64,000 nucleotides of DNA from Ignavibacteria bacterium (GTDB taxonomy: Bacteria > Bacteroidota > Ignavibacteria > Kapaibacteriales > UBA2268): assembly GCA_012518115.1 (NCBI GenBank), contig JAAYTD010000002.1, positions 13,710 to 77,709 on the forward strand, given 5' to 3'. The notes below the pieces were generated by a model. The model worked only from the letters and a program-made list of their open reading frames with translations. It was not told the DNA's origin and did not search any database. Positions within the stretch are counted from its first letter, which is position 1. The number at the start of each line of letters is the position of its first letter. The position numbers and the translations under genes are program-made. This document shows, piece by piece, positions 1-8,510 of the stretch.

Positions 1-1
1 T

Positions 2-2833
2 GAACATACTTTTAATGCAGGAGTTATTACAGGCTCAAGTAACTTTACAGATACTGGACTTGGATTAACAGAACAAAAGCAATACGAATTTAATGTACTA
101 CTTCATGATAATTCTGATGTAAGTTTCGCTTTATCTGAATTTAACAAACTGTGGGAAGAAGCTGAAGGCTGTATGATTTTGCCACAAGAAATTGAAAAAG
201 CGAAAGATAACACATATCTTGCTAAAGATATTACTCCGTTCGAATTATATATAAAAATGCTTATTGAGTATTTTGGAGATAGAATTAGCTATGATACTGA
301 GAGTTTTTATGATTTTCCTGAAGGATTTAAAAAAATGGAATATCAGATTGAAGCAGTTGACGAAGGTTATAAAAAATTATTACGGTATGACGGGTTTTTC
401 CTTTCCGATGTGGTTGGACTTGGAAAAACAGTTATTGCTACAATGATAGCTAAGCGCTTCAGTATTGAAAATGGTAGGGATAGAACAAAAATTCTAGTTG
501 TATATCCACCTGCGGTAGAGAAAAACTGGAAAACAACGTTTGACAGATTTGGAATTACTAATGTAAAATTTGTATCAAACGGAAGTCTTGAGAAAGTGCT
601 TGATACTGATAATATTGATTATTGGAATGCTGAAGAATATGATTTGGTTTTGGTTGATGAAAGTCATAAATTTAGAAATCATGAAACAAGGATGTTTAAA
701 CAGCTACAAGATATTTGTAAAAGTCCGCGTATCAACAAAGGAAGTATTGAAGGCTACAAAAAGAAAGTAATATTAATTTCTGCCACACCATTAAACAATT
801 CTCCAGAAGATCTGTATAATCAAATCTTACTATTTCAAGACCCCAGAAGATCAAACTTGGATGGAATTTCTAATTTAACAGCTTTCTTTTCACCAAAAAC
901 AGTTGAGTATAAACGTTTTAAGTCTCAACCTAAATTAAACGTTATAGCGGTGAAAAAATTATATGAAGAAATAAGAAATAAGGTTGTTAAACCGTTAACC
1001 ATTAGACGTACACGTACAGATATAGAAAAAATTGAACGATATAGAAAAGATGTGGGTGATTTTCCAAAAGTAGAAAAACCGCAAAAAATCGACTACCTAT
1101 TGGATGACAGTCAGGCTAAACTTTTTCAAGAAACTATTGATGTTTTAACAGAAAAGTTAACTTATAACAGATACCAAGCTATTGTGGGATTAATTCCTGA
1201 AATTAGAGAGCAGTATTACGAAAAGGCAGAGCTAGTATCAAAATCGTTGGCATACATTATGAAAACCCTTTTAGTCAAACGACTTGAAAGTAGTTTTTAT
1301 GCATTCAAAAACTCTTTAGACCGATTTAGGATTGCTAATGAACGAATGATTGAAATGTTTGAAAACGATAAGGTCTTTATAGCTCCAGATTTAGATATAA
1401 ATAAATTCTATGAAAAAGGATTTTCTGAAGAAGAAATTGAAAAAGAAATAAATAAGGCTCAAGAGGACAATCCTAAAAATGGAGTTTTTAAGTCTGATGA
1501 TTTTGTAAATGACTTTTTACCACAACTAAAAGCAGACCAAGAGCTGTTAAATAATCTTTGTAATAAATGGGAAGAAGTTACGACTGATCCAAAGTTAGAT
1601 AAGTTTCTTGAATTATTAAACAATAAGTTGTTTGACAAACAGTTAAATCCCGGGCAAAAACTTGTTGTCTTTTCAGAATCTACTGATACAATTAACTATC
1701 TCAATGAAAAAATAACAAGAGACGATGTGCTTACTATTTCTGCATCAAACAGAAGTAAAAGTTTTGAAACAATAGAGGAGAATTTTGATGCAAACTATCC
1801 GAAGGAGAAGCAAAAGAATGACTTTAATGTAATTCTTACTACTGATGTACTTGCAGAAGGAGTAAATTTGCATCGTAGTAATATTATCATCAATTATGAT
1901 ACACCTTGGAATTCGACACGATTAATGCAACGCATTGGACGTGTAAACCGAATAGGATCTAAATTTAAAAACATTTACAATTACGTATTTTATCCTTCAG
2001 CAGAAGGAAATTTACAAATAAATTTAATAGGAACATCACTTATTAAAATACAATCGTTCCATACTGCTTTGGGTGGAGACAATCAAATTTACTCACCTGA
2101 TGAAATCATCGACACTAATTTAGATAAATTGTTTGAAGCATCTATTGAAAAAGAAGAAGTCAACAAGGAATTGGAGTACTTGGAAAAACTGAGAGATTTC
2201 AAAAAAGAAAACCCGAAAGAATTTATTAGAATTGAAAAAATGAACTTGAGAAGTAGAACCGGAAGAAAACGACGAGAAGTAAATAACACAGAACTTCATA
2301 AATCTTCTTTAGTATTTTTAAAAACAAACGATAGGAATAATTTTTATTTGGTTGATACAGAAAAAACTCGAGAATTATCGTCCTTAGAAGCAATGGAATT
2401 TTTTGAAGCTAAACCAGAAGAAAAATCTGTGGATAGAATTGAAGAACACCATGAACAAGTAAATAGAGCAAAAGAAAGCTTTAAATCTAAACGCCAAATT
2501 GAGTTTCAAGAAACATCTGCTGTACGCGCGGCAGGAAAACACGTAAGTAGTGCCAGAAATTTAATACGAGAGTTAATTAGACTTATTGATGTTTCAGAAA
2601 CAAAAATCAAGTTAGAGCGACTTTCTAAAATGGTTGAATGGGGAACAATAACAAGCCTTGCTGTAGATTTGAATAGAACAGAGAAAAAATTAATGAAAGA
2701 ACAAATAACTAAGGAAGATTGCTTGTCGTTAGTTATAAATCTTGCTGAAAAATATGAATCTTACTATTTTAATGAAGTCAAAAAAGAAGACATTGTAGAA
2801 CCTATAATTATATTATCAGAATCTTTTAACTAA
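2..2833 (+). CDS. PLD-like nuclease domain / SNF2-family helicase fusion protein (5' end outside window)
   Basis: The reading frame is open from the window edge (phase of nt 2) through the ATG at 173, so that ATG is internal. The visible N-terminal residues VITGSSNFTDTGL fit the GSxN part of the PLD HxK(x)4D(x)6GSxN motif. Helicase motifs follow: GLGKT (I), LVLVDESHKFRN (II, DESH), ILISATPLNN (III), TDVLAEGVNLH and QRIGRVNRIGS (VI). Confidence 0.85.
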   Translation, partial: EHTFNAGVITGSSNFTDTGLGLTEQKQYEFNVLLHDNSDVSFALSEFNKLWEEAEGCMILPQEIEKAKDNTYLAKDITPFELYIKMLIEYFGDRISYDTESFYDFPEGFKKMEYQIEAVDEGYKKLLRYDGFFLSDVVGLGKTVIATMIAKRFSIENGRDRTKILVVYPPAVEKNWKTTFDRFGITNVKFVSNGSLEKVLDTDNIDYWNAEEYDLVLVDESHKFRNHETRMFKQLQDICKSPRINKGSIEGYKKKVILISATPLNNSPEDLYNQILLFQDPRRSNLDGISNLTAFFSPKTVEYKRFKSQPKLNVIAVKKLYEEIRNKVVKPLTIRRTRTDIEKIERYRKDVGDFPKVEKPQKIDYLLDDSQAKLFQETIDVLTEKLTYNRYQAIVGLIPEIREQYYEKAELVSKSLAYIMKTLLVKRLESSFYAFKNSLDRFRIANERMIEMFENDKVFIAPDLDINKFYEKGFSEEEIEKEINKAQEDNPKNGVFKSDDFVNDFLPQLKADQELLNNLCNKWEEVTTDPKLDKFLELLNNKLFDKQLNPGQKLVVFSESTDTINYLNEKITRDDVLTISASNRSKSFETIEENFDANYPKEKQKNDFNVILTTDVLAEGVNLHRSNIIINYDTPWNSTRLMQRIGRVNRIGSKFKNIYNYVFYPSAEGNLQINLIGTSLIKIQSFHTALGGDNQIYSPDEIIDTNLDKLFEASIEKEEVNKELEYLEKLRDFKKENPKEFIRIEKMNLRSRTGRKRREVNNTELHKSSLVFLKTNDRNNFYLVDTEKTRELSSLEAMEFFEAKPEEKSVDRIEEHHEQVNRAKESFKSKRQIEFQETSAVRAAGKHVSSARNLIRELIRLIDVSETKIKLERLSKMVEWGTITSLAVDLNRTEKKLMKEQITKEDCLSLVINLAEKYESYYFNEVKKEDIVEPIIILSESFN

Positions 2834-2847
2834 AAAAACCCTAAATT

Positions 2848-5800
2848 ATGAATTATTTATTCCAACATAAATATACAAGAGATAATTATACAACAATAAT
2901 ACGTGATGTGTTTCCACACTATGAGGAGTTATCAAACCCTGAGCAGATAACTGAAATTAACAATTCTCTAGCGAAAAAAGCATATAAACTTGGAGATATA
3001 AAATTAGCATGTGGAAAAGAAATAGCTGTATATGAAACTGTTTTATCTTCAAATTGTAATTTATCTCGCAACCGAGTGGGCATAAGAAACTTGTTAAGGA
3101 ATTCATGGAAGTTGTACGATGGTGCTTTTATTGCAAGCTATAAACCTGCAGAAAATGAATGGAGATTTTCTTTTTTGAGTGAAACCAAAGGTTTTGATGA
3201 TAAAGCTACTTATGCCAAACATGCTACCCAAGCGAAACGATATACCTATCTTTTTGGAGAAAAACATCCTTGCAGAACAGCAAATGAAAGATTTGAAATC
3301 TTAAAAGCAAGTAATAAAGAACTAAAAGATATAATTGAAGCTTTTTCTGTGGAGACACTTTCCAACGAGTTTTTTCAAAAATACAAAGAAATATATGCTG
3401 ATTTTGTCCAATATATTACCGGAAAAAGATACATCAAAAAAGGCTCAAAATGGGAAGAAAAACTTGTTGGAAAACCTAACAAAAAGTTGTTAGAAGATAC
3501 TTTTAACAATGACGAAAAAGCGGTTAGAGACTATGTAAAAAAAATGATGGGACGGCTTGTGTTTCTACAATTTTTGCAGAAAAAAGGTTGGTTAGATGTT
3601 CCTGTTGACAAAGACTGGGGAGTTGGAAACAAAAATTATCTTCAAGATTTATTTAAAAACAGTAAGCACCAAGATAATTTTCTTGAAAAAGTATTAGAAC
3701 CTCTTTTTTTCAAAGTATTAAACAAAGAAAGAACAAATGATATAGCTACAAATATTCCAGAAACTAACGGCAAATTTCCTTATTTAAATGGTGGTTTATT
3801 TGAAAAAGATATTGATGATGAAAGAGAGGTAGTCTTTCCTAAAAGGTACTTTAAAAATTTGATTGAATTTTTGGGAGAATATAATTTTACCATTGACGAA
3901 AATGACCCTAATGACTTAGAAATAGGTATTGATCCCGAAATGCTAGGAAAAATTTTTGAAAACCTGCTCGAAGATAATAAGGATAAAGGAGCATATTATA
4001 CGCCAAAAGAAATTGTGCAATATATGTGTCAAGAATCTTTGGTTGCTTATTTGTTGGAAAGTAAAGATGACGATAAAAAAATACGCTCGTTTGTTACTAC
4101 TCATAACACTGAAGATTTTACTACAGACGAAAAAAAACACCTTATCCAAAAACTAAAAGATGTAAAAATATGCGACCCAGCTATTGGCTCCGGTGCTTTT
4201 CCGATGGGAATGCTCAATGAACTTTTTGCTTGTAGAACTGCATTAGAAGGCGACACTCCAAATTTGGCTCAAATAAAACGCGAAATAATTCAAAACAATA
4301 TTTACGGTGTAGATATTGAAAAAGGTGCAATTGATATTGCAAGATTGAGATTTTGGCTTGCAATAGTAGTGGATAGCGATGTACCTGAACCACTTCCCAA
4401 CTTTGATTATAAATTTATGCAAGGCAATAGCTTGATAGAAAACTTTGAAGACATAGATTTAAGTAATATTTTCGAAGAACAGTCGGAAGGCAAACAAATG
4501 AAAATGATGTTTGACGAAGAAAACTATGCAATTAAACTCCTGCGAAAAAACTTAGATATCTTTTTTAATGAAACGAATCATTATAAAAAGCAATCAATCA
4601 AGAAAGAACTAAATAATAATGTCAAACAACTTATAAGAGCAAAAACAGATAAAAAAGATGTTCTAAAAAAACTTGAAAATATAGATGTTTCTGCAACTGA
4701 CAAATTTTTCCTTTGGCATACTTGGTTTGCCGATGTGTTTTATCCGGCGTCAAAACAAGGTGGGTTTGATATAGTGATTGGAAATCCGCCGTATGTGGAA
4801 GCGAAAAAATTAAAACATATTGCAAGTACACTTAAAGAGTGTTTTCTAATCTATTCGGGAACAGCCGATTTAAGTATTTACTTTATTGAAAAAGGTTTAG
4901 ACCTTCTGAAAAGAAATGGAGTTTTATGTTATATCACAACAAATAAATTCTTCAACACCATATATGGTGAACCTGTAAGAGAACTGTTGTCTAAGCAAAA
5001 CATTAATCATATAATAAATTTTGAACAGGTTGAAGTTTTTGAAGGAATTTTAGTTTCAAGTGTAATTTTAAATATTCAAAACTGTCATTCTGAAAAAAAC
5101 AATAAGTTTATTTATGAAAAATTTTACAAACTTAAGGCTAAAGAATTTAAAGTAAAGTTTTTGGAGAGGCAAAATTCATTTGGTAGTTATCGGCAAAAGT
5201 ATCTTGATAAAAACGAGTGGTCTTTTGCTGATGTTTCAGAGCTACTTTTGAAAGAAAAAATTGAAAAAAATGCGATTAATTTAAAAAATATTGATGGTGT
5301 GTCTGTGTATCGTGGTGTGACAACTGGTTTCAATCCTGCCTTTATTATTTCAGATAAAAAGAGAGATGAACTTATTGAAAAAGACACTAATAATGCACAA
5401 GTAATAAAAAAATTGTTGCAAGGTAGAAATATTAGAAAATGGTATTATAATGAAAGTGATGAAAATCTAATACTTACAAGAAGAGGAATTAAAATTGCAG
5501 ATTATCCAATTATAGAGAGTTATTTGCGCCAATTCTTTAACAAATTAAAACCTAAAACAAAATCAACTGAGGAAGAGGGCAGAAAGCCTGGTAATTACAA
5601 ATGGTTCGAGATTTTAGATAATACAGCATACTACAAACATTTCGAAAGATCAGAAAAAATTATTTGGGGATTGACAGCTGATAAATGGGCTTTTGCATAT
5701 GATGACAAACAACACTATTTGCCGAGTAATGGTTATATTTTAACATCAGAAAATGTCTCTGTTAAGTATTTATTAGGATTGTTAAACAGCAAGTTGTTAC

Positions 5801-6051
5801 AATATTATTTTGGATTTATTGGAGTTATGACAGCTGGAGGTGCATATACATTAAAAGCAGCAACAATAGAAGCTTTACCTATTATTATATCAAACGAGCA
5901 ACCAATTATTTCTCTTGTTAACAAAATTTTAAATGCCAAACAAGAAAACCCACAAGCTGACACTTCCGAATGGGAAAAAGAAATCGATCAGTTGGTATAT
6001 CAGCTTTATGGACTTACGGATGAAGAAATAAAAGTGATTGAGGAAAAGTAG
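2848..6051 (+). CDS. Large Eco57I/MmeI/PglX-like N6-adenine DNA methyltransferase (type IIG-like architecture) with a C-terminal TaqI-like target-recognition region
   Basis: AdoMet motif I is ICDPAIGSGAFP and catalytic motif IV is IVIGNPPYVEAKK. Family signatures are present: LVFLQFLQKKGW, FPYLNGGLFE, YNFTIDEND, GAYYTPKEIV. The C-terminus ends LYGLTDEEIKVIE. The gene starts 14 nt after the helicase stop, which suggests an operon. I could not assign a clear PD-(D/E)xK nuclease motif in the N-terminus. Confidence 0.85.
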   Translation: MNYLFQHKYTRDNYTTIIRDVFPHYEELSNPEQITEINNSLAKKAYKLGDIKLACGKEIAVYETVLSSNCNLSRNRVGIRNLLRNSWKLYDGAFIASYKPAENEWRFSFLSETKGFDDKATYAKHATQAKRYTYLFGEKHPCRTANERFEILKASNKELKDIIEAFSVETLSNEFFQKYKEIYADFVQYITGKRYIKKGSKWEEKLVGKPNKKLLEDTFNNDEKAVRDYVKKMMGRLVFLQFLQKKGWLDVPVDKDWGVGNKNYLQDLFKNSKHQDNFLEKVLEPLFFKVLNKERTNDIATNIPETNGKFPYLNGGLFEKDIDDEREVVFPKRYFKNLIEFLGEYNFTIDENDPNDLEIGIDPEMLGKIFENLLEDNKDKGAYYTPKEIVQYMCQESLVAYLLESKDDDKKIRSFVTTHNTEDFTTDEKKHLIQKLKDVKICDPAIGSGAFPMGMLNELFACRTALEGDTPNLAQIKREIIQNNIYGVDIEKGAIDIARLRFWLAIVVDSDVPEPLPNFDYKFMQGNSLIENFEDIDLSNIFEEQSEGKQMKMMFDEENYAIKLLRKNLDIFFNETNHYKKQSIKKELNNNVKQLIRAKTDKKDVLKKLENIDVSATDKFFLWHTWFADVFYPASKQGGFDIVIGNPPYVEAKKLKHIASTLKECFLIYSGTADLSIYFIEKGLDLLKRNGVLCYITTNKFFNTIYGEPVRELLSKQNINHIINFEQVEVFEGILVSSVILNIQNCHSEKNNKFIYEKFYKLKAKEFKVKFLERQNSFGSYRQKYLDKNEWSFADVSELLLKEKIEKNAINLKNIDGVSVYRGVTTGFNPAFIISDKKRDELIEKDTNNAQVIKKLLQGRNIRKWYYNESDENLILTRRGIKIADYPIIESYLRQFFNKLKPKTKSTEEEGRKPGNYKWFEILDNTAYYKHFERSEKIIWGLTADKWAFAYDDKQHYLPSNGYILTSENVSVKYLLGLLNSKLLQYYFGFIGVMTAGGAYTLKAATIEALPIIISNEQPIISLVNKILNAKQENPQADTSEWEKEIDQLVYQLYGLTDEEIKVIEEK
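4746..4795. repeat. Left inverted repeat (IR-L) inside the methyltransferase gene, covering the ASKQGGFDIVIGNPPY codons
   Basis: Sequence: ggcgtcaaaacaaggtgggtttgatatagtgattggaaatccgccgtatg. Its reverse complement recurs at 7161-7213. Perfect blocks of 18 bp (ggcgtcaaaacaaggtgg) and 16 bp (ggaaatccgccgtatg) flank a diverged middle. Confidence 0.9.
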
Positions 6052-6147
6052 AGAAATTTCTCTCTAAATTAATAACGAACCTCATATTTGCTTTAACGGC
6101 ATACTTGGGGCTTAAAACTTATTATATTTTATATACTTCAATTGCTT

Positions 6148-7224
6148 TTAACTCTCTGATATTCTAAATTCTATTTCATAATTTTTTATAAATTCTGTTT
6201 CTTCTTGTGTTAGCCCATAAAGAGGACAAATTAAATCATCAATTCTATCAATAATAGACTTTGATTTGCCAATTTTGTATTCTTTGAAGGATGCAACATT
6301 ATAACTGGAATTTCCTGACGAAATTCGCTCATTGACATTTTCTTCAATATCTATCAAATACTCTTCGTATAATTTTGTAATTTCTATAATTTTCTTTGGA
6401 GTAAGTTGTTTAAACGGAATTGTAAATGATTCTATTTCATAATTTTTCCAATTTAGATTGTCTGAAAAAATCTGATAAAACCAGAATGAAAGATTACTGC
6501 TTAACACACAACCTATTACGTTTGCGATATCTTTATCGAAGTAAATTTTTCTTTCAGCAGAAGAACCTGTTGAATAATTAGTAATTACTTTATAATATCG
6601 TCCTCCTGCAAAACGATAATAGATAGGTACACCTTTTTCTCGAATAAAATCTCTAATAGGTTTATGGCGGAAAATTTTTTCAAGGATACTTTTCTCCATC
6701 TCTTCGCTTATTTTAGGTATTCTACCGTATAGTTTCAAGTTTTTTACTTCTGCAAACTTTAAATTTTCAATCAATCTCTGTAAATTAAAGCCCTTACCTT
6801 TTCGATGCATTTTAGTGGAGAAAATTTGTTCGCAAGGTGTAAGCGTTTTGACAAATTGAATAATTGAAGTATTTACAAATGCATTGTCAAAAACAGGTTG
6901 AGGTCTAACTGAGTAGGATGATAAGCGTATTGTGCGGCAATTGCTTTCTAGTAACCTATGAACACCGGTCAGAGCATCGCTTGAAGTTACCGAAATTGGC
7001 ACAATGAAAATAAGATTTCCATTTTTTACAAGCAAATTATAACCCTGTTCAATGAACAGCGTATAAGTATCTATAGAACCTTTTTGTACTCCTCTAATAG
7101 TTTTTGCTGTTTTATAATTTTTGTTATAAAATTTTTTCTCACTTTCATCAAGTTTTGCACCATACGGCGGATTTCCGATTACAATGTCGAAGCCACCACC
7201 TTGTTTTGACGCCCTATTTAACAA
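6148..7224 (-). CDS. Silent alternative 3' cassette of the methyltransferase gene (motif IV plus a different TRD-like C-terminal half), inverted relative to the expressed gene
   Basis: It encodes ASKQGGGFDIVIGNPPYGAKLD..., almost identical to ASKQGGFDIVIGNPPYVEAKK of the 2848-6051 gene, then diverges and ends in the same LYGLTxEE motif. It has no motif I or N-terminal domains. The track start is TTG and there is no ATG in the first 138 codons. The frame opens two codons after the recombinase stop. Confidence 0.8.
   Translation of the reverse strand: MLNRASKQGGGFDIVIGNPPYGAKLDESEKKFYNKNYKTAKTIRGVQKGSIDTYTLFIEQGYNLLVKNGNLIFIVPISVTSSDALTGVHRLLESNCRTIRLSSYSVRPQPVFDNAFVNTSIIQFVKTLTPCEQIFSTKMHRKGKGFNLQRLIENLKFAEVKNLKLYGRIPKISEEMEKSILEKIFRHKPIRDFIREKGVPIYYRFAGGRYYKVITNYSTGSSAERKIYFDKDIANVIGCVLSSNLSFWFYQIFSDNLNWKNYEIESFTIPFKQLTPKKIIEITKLYEEYLIDIEENVNERISSGNSSYNVASFKEYKIGKSKSIIDRIDDLICPLYGLTQEETEFIKNYEIEFRISES
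7161..7213. repeat. Right inverted repeat (IR-R) at the 5' end of the silent cassette
   Basis: The reverse complement reads ggcgtcaaaacaaggtggtggcttcgacattgtaatcggaaatccgccgtatg. It matches IR-L except for one extra GGT codon and six synonymous-type substitutions. Confidence 0.9.
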
Positions 7225-7230
7225 TTTCTT

Positions 7231-7884
7231 TTATAAAAATATTTTATTTTCAACCCAAGACTTTCGTTTGCAATTTGTTGGATAAAATAAATCCGTATAA
7301 ACTAAATATCGATAAAGTGTTGAAATTGACACTTTCAAGGTTTTTGCAATTTTTTGTTTAGGCACTTCTTTTTCCAACTGCTTAACAATCCAGTTATGTT
7401 TTAGAGCACATTTAGAATTTAATCTACAACGTACACCCTTTGTACGTCCCAAAAGCACACCCTCTGCTTTCTTTCTCGCCAACGCTTCTTTTGTTCTTTG
7501 GCTTATTAAATTTCGTTCAATTTCGGCACTCAATCCAAATGCAAATGCAAGCACCTTGCTTTGTATGTCGTCGCCAAGTCGGTAGTTATCCTTTATAGTC
7601 CAAACCCTACATTCCTTGTTCATACAGATATTTAAAATTTCCATAATCATAAACAAGTTTCTTCCAAGTCTGGAAAGTTCAGCACAAATAATTAAATCAT
7701 CTTTTTTTACTTTTTTAAGTAATTTGCCAAGTTCTCGCTTGTCGTAAGATTTTGTACCGCTTATAGTTTCTTCTATCCAACCGTCAATAATTAAATTTTT
7801 CTTTTCACAAAAATTATTGATTTCAAATCGTTGGTTTTCAACCGTCTGTTTATCGCTACTTACGCGAATGTATCCATAAATCAT
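7231..7884 (-). CDS. Small serine recombinase (resolvase/invertase family)
   Basis: The N-terminus MIYGYIRVSSDKQ carries the catalytic Ser motif. LSRLGRN and the SxxxERxLIxxRTKEAL E-helix region are present. The C-terminal HTH is IAKTLKVSISTLYRYL. The 217-aa size is typical of Hin/Gin/resolvase-type enzymes. Confidence 0.9.
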   Translation of the reverse strand: MIYGYIRVSSDKQTVENQRFEINNFCEKKNLIIDGWIEETISGTKSYDKRELGKLLKKVKKDDLIICAELSRLGRNLFMIMEILNICMNKECRVWTIKDNYRLGDDIQSKVLAFAFGLSAEIERNLISQRTKEALARKKAEGVLLGRTKGVRCRLNSKCALKHNWIVKQLEKEVPKQKIAKTLKVSISTLYRYLVYTDLFYPTNCKRKSWVENKIFL

Positions 7885-7974
7885 AATCGTTTTTGTTATA
7901 GAGTAATGAAAAAGAATACAAAATTGGCAAATCTAAAGCCATAATCAAACACTTTAACGATTTAATTTGTTAAT

Positions 7975-8450
7975 CTAATCACATAAATCACACTTCTGAC
8001 AAAAAAAATATTATGTCACCCCTACGGGGTTTATTTGTTGGTGTGCATTATTTTTTCTATAATAATGTCACCCCTACGGGGTTTGTTGTTAAATTCTCCT
8101 CTTTGAGAGGAGTACCCGCGCCAGCGGGGGAGGTGTGGTAATAGACTACCCCGTCAAGCTGACGCTTGCCACCCCTTCGTCCCGAAGGGGAATTTGCTCC
8201 CAGCGAAGAGTAGAAAATTCTCCTCTAGCTTCCGTCTTCTTTGCGTCCTTCGCGTAAGTCTTTGTGTTCTTTGCGGTTAAAAAATCTGTCTTCCAACTTC
8301 CGACTTCTGTCTTCCGTCTCCAAATGACCACCCCGTCAAGCTTCGCCTGCCACTCCTTCGCAGAGGGGAATTTGCAGCCCGACATTCAGAAAAGTTGTAT
8401 TTTAAAAATCTTGCTAATCCTTTAATCCTATTAATCCTAGTTCAGACAAT
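7975..8450. repeat. Intergenic mosaic of hairpin repeat modules (locus A)
   Basis: It contains a 20-bp direct repeat atgtcacccctacggggttt at 8014-8033 and 8066-8085. Module U1 is at 8093-8139 (aattctcctctttgagaggagtacccgcgccagcgggggaggtgtgg). Module U2 is at 8145-8198 and 8327-8376 (gac[tc]accccgtcaagc...gcc...ccttcg...ggggaatttgc). It also carries the accgcaaagaacacaaaga module (reverse) and the gttcagacaa module. The same modules recur at loci B-F. Confidence 0.8.
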
Positions 8451-8510
8451 AAAAAAAACAGATTTTTTTATCTAAAATCCGCTTTTTTCTATTCTTATTT
8501 TCTTAAAAAA

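What the first reader, a model, noticed from the sequence alone, without database searches (positions are those of the whole stretch)
2848..7884. Predicted DNA-inversion switch that swaps the target-recognition half of a large N6-adenine methyltransferase
Seen in the sequence:
- A 50-bp stretch covering the codons for ASKQGGFDIVIGNPPY (catalytic motif IV, 4746-4795) recurs as a reverse complement at 7161-7213.
- The two copies share perfect 18-bp and 16-bp blocks. The middle differs by six substitutions plus one extra Gly codon.
- The distal copy opens a 358-codon minus-strand frame (6148-7224). It repeats motif IV, then encodes a different TRD-like C-terminal half that ends in the same LYGLTxEE motif.
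- That frame lacks motif I and all N-terminal domains. It has no ATG in its first 138 codons and starts two codons after the stop of a serine recombinase gene (7231-7884), which lies just outside the repeats.
- Both repeats are in the same codon phase. Inversion of roughly 4796-7160 would therefore fuse the constant N-terminal 649 aa to the alternative half, giving about 987 aa in place of 1067 aa.

Established knowledge: hsdS shufflons of type I systems and duplicated, inverted pglX cassettes with a recombinase in some BREX loci work this way.

Inference: this locus alternates between two methylation (and probably restriction) specificities, as a phasevarion. What looks unusual to me is the combination of a small serine recombinase, rather than a tyrosine one, with a PLD-SNF2 partner gene.
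Basis: partly seen in the sequence, partly recalled or inferred. Interest (0 to 1): 0.85.

Follow-up and report, generated by a model that had tools for sequence, protein, structure and literature searches.

The report
Invertible methyltransferase specificity switch, known type
This is most likely a DNA-flipping switch that lets a restriction-type methyltransferase alternate between two target-recognition halves; it appears intact, but the same design has already been shown to flip in gut Bacteroides, so it is a new example, not a new mechanism.

Summary
A 50/53-bp inverted repeat at the motif IV codons (4746-4795 and 7161-7213) links the 1067-aa N6-adenine methyltransferase to a promoterless 358-codon minus-strand cassette. 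The cassette lies directly behind a 217-aa serine recombinase gene. The recombinase passes NCBI's curated model for the Mpi "master DNA invertase" family. The upstream partner is a PLD(HKD)-SNF2 helicase that runs off the window edge.

No assembly of this organism shows the flipped state. However, two related Bacteroidales elements with recombinases 76% identical to this one occur in public assemblies in both orientations. One of them has the same gene order as the window. I mapped both crossovers to the same 11-12-bp core, CGACCCTCAAA(A). That core sits at the codons where the window's perfect 18-bp block lies.

The inversion reading is therefore well supported by homology (about 0.75). The claim of unusualness is not supported. 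Milman et al. 2023 (NAR) confirmed inversions by long reads in a Bacteroides ovatus "Type II RM enzyme + upstream PLD-SNF helicase" locus. They also found Mpi-family serine recombinases 16-fold enriched next to inversion targets.

Verdict: new member of a known kind, moderate-to-low interest.

The parts
1..2833 (+). PLD(HKD)-SNF2 helicase-nuclease gene, with its 5' end cut by the window edge. ATG173 is internal, and the complete protein is 1088 aa.
   Evidence: The frame of ATG173 is open back to base 2 and encodes ...GSSNFTDTGLG..., a PLD tail. On 100%-identical contigs L008-L011 the gene is 1088 aa with PLDc_2 (28.7 bits, cutoff 27), SNF2-rel_dom and Helicase_C. PADLOC hits are 'HKD+Snf2' at 1.4e-31 and DrmD at 1.5e-34.
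2848..6051 (+). Expressed gamma-class N6-adenine DNA methyltransferase of 1067 aa. It comprises a constant N-terminal part (to about 4755) and variable half A (motifs IV-VIII plus a TaqI_C-type TRD).
   Evidence: Pfam hits: Eco57I 5.8e-39, TaqI_C 1.3e-14 (residues 855-1012), MmeI_Mtase 7.3e-09. PADLOC REase_MTase_IIG 1.2e-124. No N-terminal nuclease domain was detected.
4746..4795 (+). Left inverted repeat (codons ASKQGGFDIVIGNPPY). The predicted crossover core lies in the first 18 nt, 4746-4763, probably in GGCGTCAAAA.
   Evidence: The position is homologous, codon for codon, to the mapped crossover core CGACCCTCAAA(A) in L002/L003 and L092/L098.
4756..7203 (.). Predicted invertible segment of about 2.4 kb. 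It holds half A, the 96-nt convergent intergenic spacer and half B.
   Evidence: Inferred from the repeat positions and from the clean 2152-nt and 3545-nt inversions seen in related elements.
6148..7224 (-). Silent cassette B: 358 codons covering motifs IV-VIII, a different TRD and a C-terminal LYGLT helix. It has no motif I and no ATG before codon 139.
   Evidence: It is homologous to half A only over the first ~150 residues (hhalign 97.4%, 31% identity) and unrelated beyond that. Full-length 981-1006-aa relatives carry this type of C-terminal half fused to the constant part.
7161..7213 (-). Right inverted repeat, 53 nt with one extra Gly codon. The same 18-nt core lies at 7196-7213.
7231..7884 (-). 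Mpi-family small serine DNA invertase of 217 aa, lying outside the invertible segment and co-oriented with cassette B.
   Evidence: [quoted passage not shown] Pfam Resolvase 3.7e-34 and HTH_7. The best solved relatives are Gin invertase and gamma-delta resolvase. It is 76% identical to the recombinases of elements seen in both orientations.
7911..7973 (+). Relic of a TRD 3' end (…KEYKIGKSKAIIKHFNDLIC*), inverted relative to 6226-6285 of cassette B. It is probably a leftover of an earlier cassette or rearrangement.
   Evidence: The 60-nt inverted repeat is 77% identical, with a core of 27/28. It is absent from the related loci L092 and L101.

Best explanation
The locus is a two-cassette invertible switch in a two-gene restriction-like system, made of a PLD-SNF2 helicase-nuclease and an Eco57I/MmeI-like N6-adenine methyltransferase.

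Proposed mechanism:
1. The Mpi-family serine invertase (7231-7884) binds two inverted copies of a crossover site. The sites lie in the codons just 5' of catalytic motif IV, at GGCGTCAAAACAAGGTGG (4746-4763 and 7196-7213).
2. It makes the staggered double-strand breaks typical of serine recombinases, rotates the half-sites and religates them.
3. This flips about 2.4 kb.

Predicted consequences:
- The constant ~635-residue N-terminal part (unassigned N-terminal region, MmeI-like helical spacer, AdoMet-binding motifs X-III) becomes joined in frame to either half A or half B. Half A gives the present 1067-aa enzyme with a TaqI_C-type TRD. Half B gives a 987-aa enzyme.
- The unused half is parked, promoterless and without motif I, behind the recombinase stop codon.
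- The two TRDs are unrelated in sequence, so the two states should methylate different motifs. Together with the PLD-SNF2 partner, they should license restriction of different motifs.

Shown here:
- the anatomy of the locus;
- the recombinase family assignment;
- natural inversions in homologous elements, with the crossover mapped to the homologous core.

Inferred, not shown:
- that this copy still flips;
- that the specificities differ;
- that the partner gene restricts DNA.
For: 1. Repeat and reading-frame geometry are exact.
2. The recombinase passes the curated equivalog model for Mpi-family master DNA invertases. It carries the YIRVSS catalytic serine motif.
3. The gene order PLD-SNF2 > methyltransferase > one reversed cassette > reversed 217-aa recombinase recurs in a very common Bacteroidales mobilisable element (L092-L097). 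It also recurs in Treponema, Prevotella and Bacteroides loci (L021, L074, L055).
4. That Bacteroidales element occurs in both orientations. L092 and L098 differ by a clean 2152-nt inversion at 99.9% identity. The three-cassette Parabacteroides goldsteinii element differs between L002 and L003 by a clean 3545-nt inversion.
5. Both crossovers map inside CGACCCTCAAA(A). In L002/L003 this is the only uninterrupted run the two partner sites share. In L092 about 45 nt of further near-identity was available but not used. This argues for site-specific rather than homologous exchange.
6. The window's perfect 18-mer lies at exactly those codons.
7. The residues encoded there differ between loci (ASKQGG, RPSKEG, RPSGCNG, RPSDRN...) but match within each locus. 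The identity is therefore not explained by protein conservation.
8. In the closest relative, L101 (80% nt identity), the core is kept at 22 of 23 nt while the adjacent FDIVIGNPPY coding part has drifted.
9. Cassette B is an intact 358-codon frame in ~30% GC DNA. It is 59-80% identical to cassettes and to the C-terminal halves of full-length enzymes elsewhere.
10. Published long-read evidence exists for inversion in the same kind of locus (PMC9881135; PMC11741434).
Against: - No flipped copy of this locus was seen. All contigs of this organism retrieved (L001, L008-L011, from at least five samples, plus four similar places not shown) have the window's orientation. These look-ups were by the exact sequence of the native proteins, so they could only recover the native state.
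- The 987-aa fusion is absent from the protein database.
- The recombinant junction is absent from two contig collections. One of them does not contain this organism at all. The organism was also not among the 80 best loci returned from the other collection.
- The window's core (GGCGTCAAAACAAGG) matches the family consensus GACCCTCAAAAGAGGG at only about 10 of 16 positions and lacks its CCCTC/GAGGG dyad.
- Different specificities, restriction activity and any regulatory effect are all untested.
Confidence: 0.75

Rival explanations
1. Frozen switch. The architecture descends from an active inversion system, but in this lineage it no longer flips, or flips negligibly. Possible causes are drift of the crossover core away from what the recombinase recognises, or a recombinase that is not expressed. 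The organism would then make only the 1067-aa form, and cassette B would be a recent relic.
For: Every retrieved assembly of this organism has one orientation. No recombinant junction or fusion protein was found. The core deviates from the family consensus and has lost its dyad symmetry. A decayed example exists in the family: Treponema parvum L033 has a fragmented recombinase and no second motif IV copy. The TRD relic at 7911-7973 shows that this locus has already lost material.
Against: Both site copies share the same derived 18-mer perfectly, and the closest relative keeps it at 22 of 23 nt. The recombinase and the 358-codon cassette are both intact. The contigs are ~100% identical to each other, so they are effectively one strain, and assemblers report the majority orientation. 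The exact-protein look-ups could only recover the native form. In the Bacteroidales element that demonstrably flips, one state also predominates in the database: 1188 index blocks for the 999-aa form, against a 309-member cluster for the parked form.
Confidence: 0.15
2. Cassette B is a separate gene. It would be translated from TTG7224, perhaps coupled to the recombinase, as a 358-aa protein. That protein could act as a stand-alone specificity or regulatory subunit rather than as a silent half-gene.
For: [quoted passage not shown] The frame follows the recombinase stop by only 6 nt, so it is probably co-transcribed.
Against: It lacks motifs X-III, so it cannot bind AdoMet on its own. It has no ATG for 138 codons. 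In relatives the cassette frame is closed by a stop codon right at the repeat boundary (L074, L055). The same half occurs at 99-100% identity both fused in 999-aa enzymes and as a parked 364-aa frame. This is what a shuffled half-gene predicts.
Confidence: 0.06
3. Coincidental neighbours. The repeat would only reflect two paralogous methyltransferase fragments sharing conserved motif IV codons. The recombinase would be a resolvase or a mobile-element gene unrelated to them.
For: FDIVIGNPPY is strongly conserved across the family. The codons GGNAATCCGCCGTAT recur in unrelated loci.
Against: The perfect 18-mer encodes non-conserved residues. The recombinase-cassette adjacency and orientation are conserved across phyla. 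The recombinase belongs to a DNA-invertase family. Homologous elements have inverted exactly at this site.
Confidence: 0.03

Closest known systems
Long-read-confirmed programmed inversion in Bacteroides ovatus CP083813.1:5322008-5329826, described as 'Type II RM enzyme homologous to Cj0031' with an immediately upstream PLD + SNF helicase CDS (Milman, Yelin & Kishony 2023, NAR; PMC9881135)
   Same: The system description matches: an Eco57I-type methylase is the inversion target and a PLD-SNF2 gene lies immediately upstream. [quoted passage not shown] It also finds 'Eco57I ... methylase domain-containing protein' 16-fold enriched as a target.
   Different: That target CDS is 1122 aa, against 1067 aa here. 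I could not read that record, so neither sequence identity nor its recombinase type was checked. The nearest Bacteroidales relatives I could read are about 54% identical (methyltransferase) and 76% identical (recombinase). The window's crossover core is a diverged variant.
Bacteroidales mobilisable-element version of the same switch (loci L092-L098; 999-aa methyltransferase P0217, 'MULTISPECIES Bacteroidales') and the three-cassette Parabacteroides goldsteinii version (L002-L007)
   Same: The gene order and orientations match. The recombinase is 217 aa in all. The repeat starts at the codons before motif IV. Both orientations were observed here.
   Different: Those copies sit on integrase/relaxase-bearing mobilisable elements, with two extra upstream genes (SLFN_AlbA_2/HATPase_c_4 and a 234-aa protein). 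The window copy lies among chromosomal genes (nitroreductase, GreA) with no mobility genes nearby. The core is GACCCTCAAAAGAGGG there and GGCGTCAAAACAAGG here.
Serine-invertase switches Gin/Cin/Pin/Min of phages Mu and P1, e14 and p15B
   Same: A small serine invertase encoded next to the invertible segment swaps alternative C-terminal halves onto a constant N-terminal part, through a crossover site inside the coding sequence. Gin is the best solved-structure match of the recombinase. The description of the tail-fibre systems rests on established knowledge.
   Different: The target is a DNA methyltransferase rather than a tail fibre. The recombinase belongs to the Bacteroidetes Mpi clade. Dependence on a Fis-type enhancer is unknown.
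Mpi, the master DNA invertase of Bacteroides fragilis
   Same: Same curated protein family (NF009949).
   Different: From my own recall, B. fragilis Mpi flips promoter segments of capsular polysaccharide loci in trans, at repeats containing ARACGTWCGT. Here the enzyme is dedicated to an adjacent intragenic site that lacks that motif.
Type I hsdS shufflons and BREX type 1 pglX inversions
   Same: DNA inversion exchanges target-recognition modules of an adenine methyltransferase system, giving alternative specificities.
   Different: Type I systems shuffle TRDs in a separate HsdS subunit, nearly always with tyrosine recombinases: 98% of the 827 invertases surveyed fall in five clades, four of which are tyrosine-only (PMC7672463). 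The L. rhamnosus PglX case swaps a middle segment by nested inversions (PMC9881135). Here a single inversion replaces everything from motif IV to the C-terminus.
HKD-Swi2/Snf2 + N6-methyltransferase 'Type-2 BREX-related' systems (PMC12839542) and Type ISP enzymes
   Same: An HKD(PLD) nuclease fused to the N-terminus of a Swi2/Snf2 helicase is paired with a PglX-like N6-adenine methyltransferase and proposed to act as an RM-like effector pair.
   Different: Those systems also need a DUF499 AAA+ ATPase and DUF3780. Neither is called in the flanks of this locus. Type ISP enzymes carry all activities in one polypeptide.

Membership tests
Mpi-family master DNA invertase (small serine recombinase) | Scores above the curated cutoff of NCBIfam equivalog NF009949 | tested here: met
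   335.8 bits against a cutoff of 272, E = 8.5e-101, residues 1-198 on profile positions 1-197 of 203.
Mpi-family master DNA invertase (small serine recombinase) | N-terminal resolvase catalytic domain with the nucleophilic serine, plus a C-terminal HTH | tested here: met
   Pfam Resolvase 3.7e-34 over residues 2-143. The motif YIRVSS lies at residues 5-10. HTH_7 scores 23.2 bits, just under its 23.8 cutoff. Gin and gamma-delta resolvase are the best PDB matches.
Mpi-family master DNA invertase (small serine recombinase) | Catalyses inversion between inverted sites | not testable with these tools
   Only indirect evidence: elements with 76%-identical recombinases are found in both orientations.
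Gene-altering programmed inversion locus (sense of Milman et al. 2023) | Inverted repeats overlapping the target CDS and a partial paralogue on the other strand, in frame | tested here: met
Gene-altering programmed inversion locus (sense of Milman et al. 2023) | Recombinase gene adjacent to the target | tested here: met
   7231-7884, starting 6 nt from the cassette.
Gene-altering programmed inversion locus (sense of Milman et al. 2023) | Coexistence or occurrence of both orientations in sequence data of the same organism | tested here: inconclusive
   Only one orientation appears in all contigs of this organism retrieved. No recombinant junction or fusion protein was found. Raw reads are not available, the look-ups were biased to the native form, and one collection lacks the organism altogether.
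Type IIG (MmeI/Eco57I-like) single-chain restriction-modification enzyme | Gamma-class N6-adenine methyltransferase domain followed by a C-terminal TRD | tested here: met
   Eco57I 5.8e-39, MmeI_Mtase 7.3e-09, TaqI_C 1.3e-14. PADLOC REase_MTase_IIG 1.2e-124, covering only residues 427-1065.
Type IIG (MmeI/Eco57I-like) single-chain restriction-modification enzyme | N-terminal endonuclease domain in the same polypeptide | tested here: not met
   No nuclease family hits residues 1-351 even at E <= 1; there is only a weak MmeI_hel spacer match. The nuclease candidate is the PLD domain of the neighbouring gene. The locus should therefore not be filed as a bona fide Type IIG enzyme.
BREX type 1 (PglX) | PglX equivalog score, with brxC and pglZ in the locus | tested here: not met
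   BREX_1_MTaseX scores 107.8 bits against a cutoff of 500. No BrxC or PglZ genes are called in the 10-kb flanks.
DISARM class 1 | DrmD and DrmMI equivalogs together with DrmA, DrmB and DrmC | tested here: not met
   DISARM_DrmD scores 140.4 bits against a cutoff of 610. No DUF1998 or DrmA-type genes lie in the flanks.
Type-2 BREX-related (DUF499-centred) system | DUF499 AAA+ ATPase and DUF3780 alongside the N6-methyltransferase and HKD-Snf2 helicase | tested here: inconclusive
   The HKD-Snf2 and methyltransferase genes are present. The precomputed Pfam calls for the flanking genes in L008-L010 list no DUF499 or DUF3780, and three upstream genes have no family at all. I did not search those proteins individually.
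Phasevarion | Methyltransferase switching changes the expression of a regulon | not testable with these tools
   No methylome or transcriptome data are available.

The most novel reading that the evidence does not exclude
The Mpi-clade invertases dedicated to these methyltransferase loci may form a set of co-evolved recombinase/site pairs. Most relatives cross over in a dyad-symmetric GACCCTC-AAAA-GAGGG core. This lineage uses a diverged, nearly asymmetric core, GGCG(T/A)CAAAACAAGGTGGTGG. That core is conserved with its closest relative even where the motif IV coding part has drifted. If the window's enzyme is active and specific for its own core, the family would offer naturally orthogonal small serine invertases with short (about 12-18 bp) sites that are tolerated inside coding sequence. 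It would also make testable how a restriction system survives an instant change of specificity.
Probability: 0.3. Interest if true: 0.45.

Novelty: new member of a known kind. Interest (0 to 1): 0.3.

Why it matters
If active, the switch lets a clonal population hold two methylation and restriction specificities at once. This is a bet-hedging defence against phages and incoming DNA, and possibly an epigenetic regulator. That principle is already documented for this gene family in gut Bacteroidales. This locus adds four things:
- a chromosomal, minimal two-cassette example in a different low-GC organism;
- a crossover core mapped from natural variants, CGACCCTCAAA(A), just 5' of motif IV;
- evidence that the exchanged unit includes part of the catalytic domain, not only the TRD;
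- a diverged site variant that may indicate co-evolution of recombinase and site.

It also corrects annotation practice. The many 343-364-aa 'Eco57I domain-containing proteins' in databases are parked half-genes, not independent enzymes.

Tried and rejected
1. Search for the flipped form of this organism's locus.
 - The 987-aa predicted fusion found no close match apart from the native 1067-aa protein.
 - A 160-aa junction peptide gave nothing. That search retrieved only 94 short candidates and missed even the native proteins, so it is a weak test.
 - An exact 43-nt recombinant junction gave 0 hits in genome contigs and 0 in metagenome contigs.
 - A control with the native 32-nt left junction also gave 0 hits in metagenome contigs, so that null result is uninformative.
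2. dN/dS on the silent cassette was not feasible. The contigs of this organism are 99-100% identical.
3. I looked for further copies of the core in the 64-kb window, which would indicate a trans-acting 'master' role. None was found, even with up to 3 mismatches.
4. I considered the 60-nt repeat 6226-6285/7911-7970 as a second, nested invertible unit that would flip the recombinase gene. I rejected this as the main reading. The outer arm is a 20-codon dead fragment ending in a stop. The repeat has no counterpart in related loci. Inversion there would put the motif IV sites in direct orientation.
5. I considered filing the system as BREX, DISARM, Type IIG or Type-2 BR. Defining components are missing in each case (see the membership tests).
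6. The sigma-70 promoter and terminator scan of 5900-8500 gave nothing above background for promoters, and Bacteroidetes-type promoters are not covered by it.

Full report
**What is in the sequence**

- The plus-strand gene 2848-6051 encodes a 1067-aa gamma-class N6-adenine methyltransferase. Its Pfam hits are Eco57I 5.8e-39, MmeI_Mtase, and TaqI_C at residues 855-1012. PADLOC gives REase_MTase_IIG at 1.2e-124, but only over residues 427-1065.
- The stretch 4746-4795 recurs as a reverse complement at 7161-7213. It has perfect blocks of 18 nt (GGCGTCAAAACAAGGTGG) and 16 nt (GGAAATCCGCCGTATG). Between the blocks are synonymous third-position differences and one extra Gly codon.
- Each block occurs only at these two places in the 64-kb window. 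Chance expectation is about 0.01 or less, even with mismatches allowed.
- The distal copy opens a 358-codon minus-strand frame (6148-7224). This frame starts two codons after the stop of the recombinase gene and has no ATG before codon 139. It is in the same codon phase as the proximal copy. It contains only the motif IV-onward part of the Eco57I domain.
- Joining the constant part to this frame gives a 987-aa protein.

**The two halves**

A profile comparison shows that halves A and B are homologous over their first ~150 residues, which form the rest of the catalytic domain (97.4% probability, 31% identity). After that they are unrelated until the shared C-terminal LYGLTxEE helix. The exchangeable unit is therefore motifs IV-VIII plus the TRD, not the TRD alone.

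Full-length enzymes of 981-1006 aa exist elsewhere that combine a homologous constant part with a B-type half. They are 52-59% identical over 100% of the predicted fusion. The fusion is thus a natural architecture.

**The neighbours**

The gene ending at 2833 continues upstream of ATG173 to the window edge and encodes the tail of a PLD domain. On contigs 100% identical to the window it is a 1088-aa protein with PLDc_2, SNF2-related and Helicase_C domains.

The methyltransferase has no detectable nuclease domain of its own. The PLD domain is therefore the likely nuclease of the system; this is inference.

[quoted passage not shown] It has the YIRVSS catalytic motif. Its best solved relatives are Gin invertase and gamma-delta resolvase.

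**Does this kind of locus really flip?**

Homologues of cassette B are abundant as 343-364-aa "half" frames in Bacteroidales.

- *Three-cassette element.* In Parabacteroides goldsteinii the same exact cassette protein sits in two arrangements of a three-cassette locus. Aligning L002 with L003 shows collinear flanks and a clean 3545-nt inverted block at 99.9% identity.
- *Two-cassette element.* A very common Bacteroidales mobilisable element has the window's gene order: PLD-SNF2, a 999-aa methyltransferase, one reversed 356-aa cassette and a reversed 217-aa recombinase. Its expressed half also occurs at 99.4% identity as a parked 364-aa frame. The contig carrying that frame (L098) differs from L092 by a clean 2152-nt inversion.
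- *Crossover mapping.* Comparing the four junctions in each pair places both crossovers inside CGACCCTCAAA(A), the codons R-P-S-K just 5' of GFDIxIGNPPY. In L002/L003 those 11 nt are the only uninterrupted identity between the partner sites. In L092 about 45 further nearly identical nucleotides were available but not used. This is the signature of site-specific recombination rather than homologous recombination.
- *Relation to the window.* The window's recombinase is 76% identical to the recombinases of these elements.

**Relation of the window's site to that core**

Codon for codon, the window's perfect 18-mer (P-A-S-K-Q-G-G) lies at the same position, and it shares TCAAAA with the mapped core.

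The residues encoded there differ among loci (ASKQGG, RPSKEG, RPSGCNG, RPSDRNRSG) but agree within each locus. In every shufflon-type locus, identity between copies begins abruptly at this point. This is concerted evolution of a DNA site, not protein conservation.

The window's core does differ from the common GACCCTC-AAAA-GAGGG dyad, matching at about 10 of 16 positions. This is a reason for caution. However, the closest relative (L101, 80% nt identity) keeps the variant core at 22 of 23 nt, while its adjacent FDIVIGNPPY coding part has drifted to FNIVISNPPY. This suggests the variant core is itself under selection.

By homology, the crossover in the window should fall in 4746-4755 and 7204-7213. 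That gives an invertible segment of about 2.4 kb and a constant part of about 635 residues.

**Direct evidence for this locus**

There is none.
- All retrieved contigs of this organism have the window's orientation and are 99-100% identical. They come from at least five samples.
- The predicted fusion protein, a junction peptide and an exact recombinant junction were not found.

These nulls are weak for four reasons:
- The look-ups by exact protein can only recover the native state.
- Assemblers report the majority orientation.
- One collection lacks the organism entirely.
- The junction-peptide search missed even the native proteins.

I put the active-switch reading at about 0.75 and a frozen switch at about 0.15.

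**How common and how new**

I examined 80 loci from species-representative genomes.
- A PLD-SNF2 gene lies directly upstream of the methyltransferase in 74 of them.
- An Mpi-like recombinase is present in 8, from Bacteroidota, Spirochaetota and others.
- Extra motif IV cassettes are present in 3.
- Some relatives place much longer repeats (190-320 nt) further downstream in the gene. This is a second design that swaps only the TRD.

The literature already covers the class.
- Milman, Yelin and Kishony (NAR 2023, PMC9881135) confirmed by long reads a programmed inversion in a Bacteroides ovatus "Type II RM enzyme homologous to Cj0031" whose immediately upstream CDS encodes PLD and SNF helicase domains.
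- The same paper noted homologues with repeats in three phyla. It reported 16-fold enrichment of Eco57I-domain methylases as targets and of Mpi-family serine recombinases as neighbours.
- Ni et al. (bioRxiv 2025, PMC11741434) show methyltransferase-gene inversions in Phocaeicola vulgatus and Bacteroides uniformis by long-read metagenomics.
- The HKD-Snf2 plus N6-methyltransferase pairing is described as the effector and modification pair of "Type-2 BREX-related" systems (PMC12839542). The DUF499 and DUF3780 components of those systems are not evident here.

**Verdict**

The inversion-switch interpretation is well supported by comparative evidence but not demonstrated for this copy. The phasevarion and restriction claims remain inference.

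This is a new member of a known kind. The modest additions are the mapped crossover core, the finding that part of the catalytic domain is exchanged, the diverged site variant, and the TRD relic at 7911-7973, which hints at a former third cassette.

Noticed in passing
window 7911-7973 (+), paired with 6226-6285: A 20-codon dead fragment of a TRD C-terminus (…KEYKIGKSKAIIKHFNDLIC*) lies in the recombinase upstream region. It is inverted relative to the 3' end of cassette B (60 nt at 77% identity, core 27/28). Related loci L092 and L101 do not have it. It is probably a leftover of a lost cassette or an old rearrangement.
   Followed up: partly
window 8010-8090 and 8139-8385: This is a GC-rich island (43% against ~30% GC) made of short palindromic repeats. 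It has two copies of ATTATGTCACCCCTACGGGGTTT that look like terminator hairpins. An ~88-nt unit is repeated at 8140-8197 and 8323-8375, and recurs elsewhere in the same genome (L008 1612-1700 and 6402-6487, 88-90% identity). The 79-aa ORF 8146-8385 is probably spurious. The element looks like a REP- or MITE-like repeat.
   Followed up: partly
L008/L010 1-677 (same genome, about 9 kb upstream of the window start): A second, complete MmeI-type Type IIG enzyme lies a few genes upstream of the PLD-SNF2 gene. It is 967 aa with MmeI_N, HSDR_N, MmeI_Mtase and TaqI_C. The locus therefore sits in a small defence island.
   Followed up: no
L099 453-10392 (Logan SRR24555985): This is a variant locus with two small resolvase genes. 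A cassette 72% identical to cassette B is separated from a 1249-aa methyltransferase and a TaqI_C cassette by Fic and HTH genes. The invertible region may carry passenger genes.
   Followed up: no
L043 12141-12462/13815-14136; L067, L081, L033 likewise: Some family members with an Mpi-like recombinase have long inverted repeats (190-320 nt, 73-93% identity). These lie 400-700 nt downstream of motif IV instead of at it. This is a second switch design that exchanges only the TRD. In Treponema parvum (L033) the recombinase is fragmented and no second motif IV copy was detected, so it looks decayed.
   Followed up: partly
L101 (JGI 3300010357), 604-2383: The closest relative of the recombinase + cassette B module (80% nt identity) is followed by an unrelated convergent gene rather than a methyltransferase on its 2.8-kb contig. 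Its motif IV reads FNIVISNPPY while the crossover core is conserved.
   Followed up: partly
protein database hits P0001-P0120: [quoted passage not shown]
   Followed up: partly
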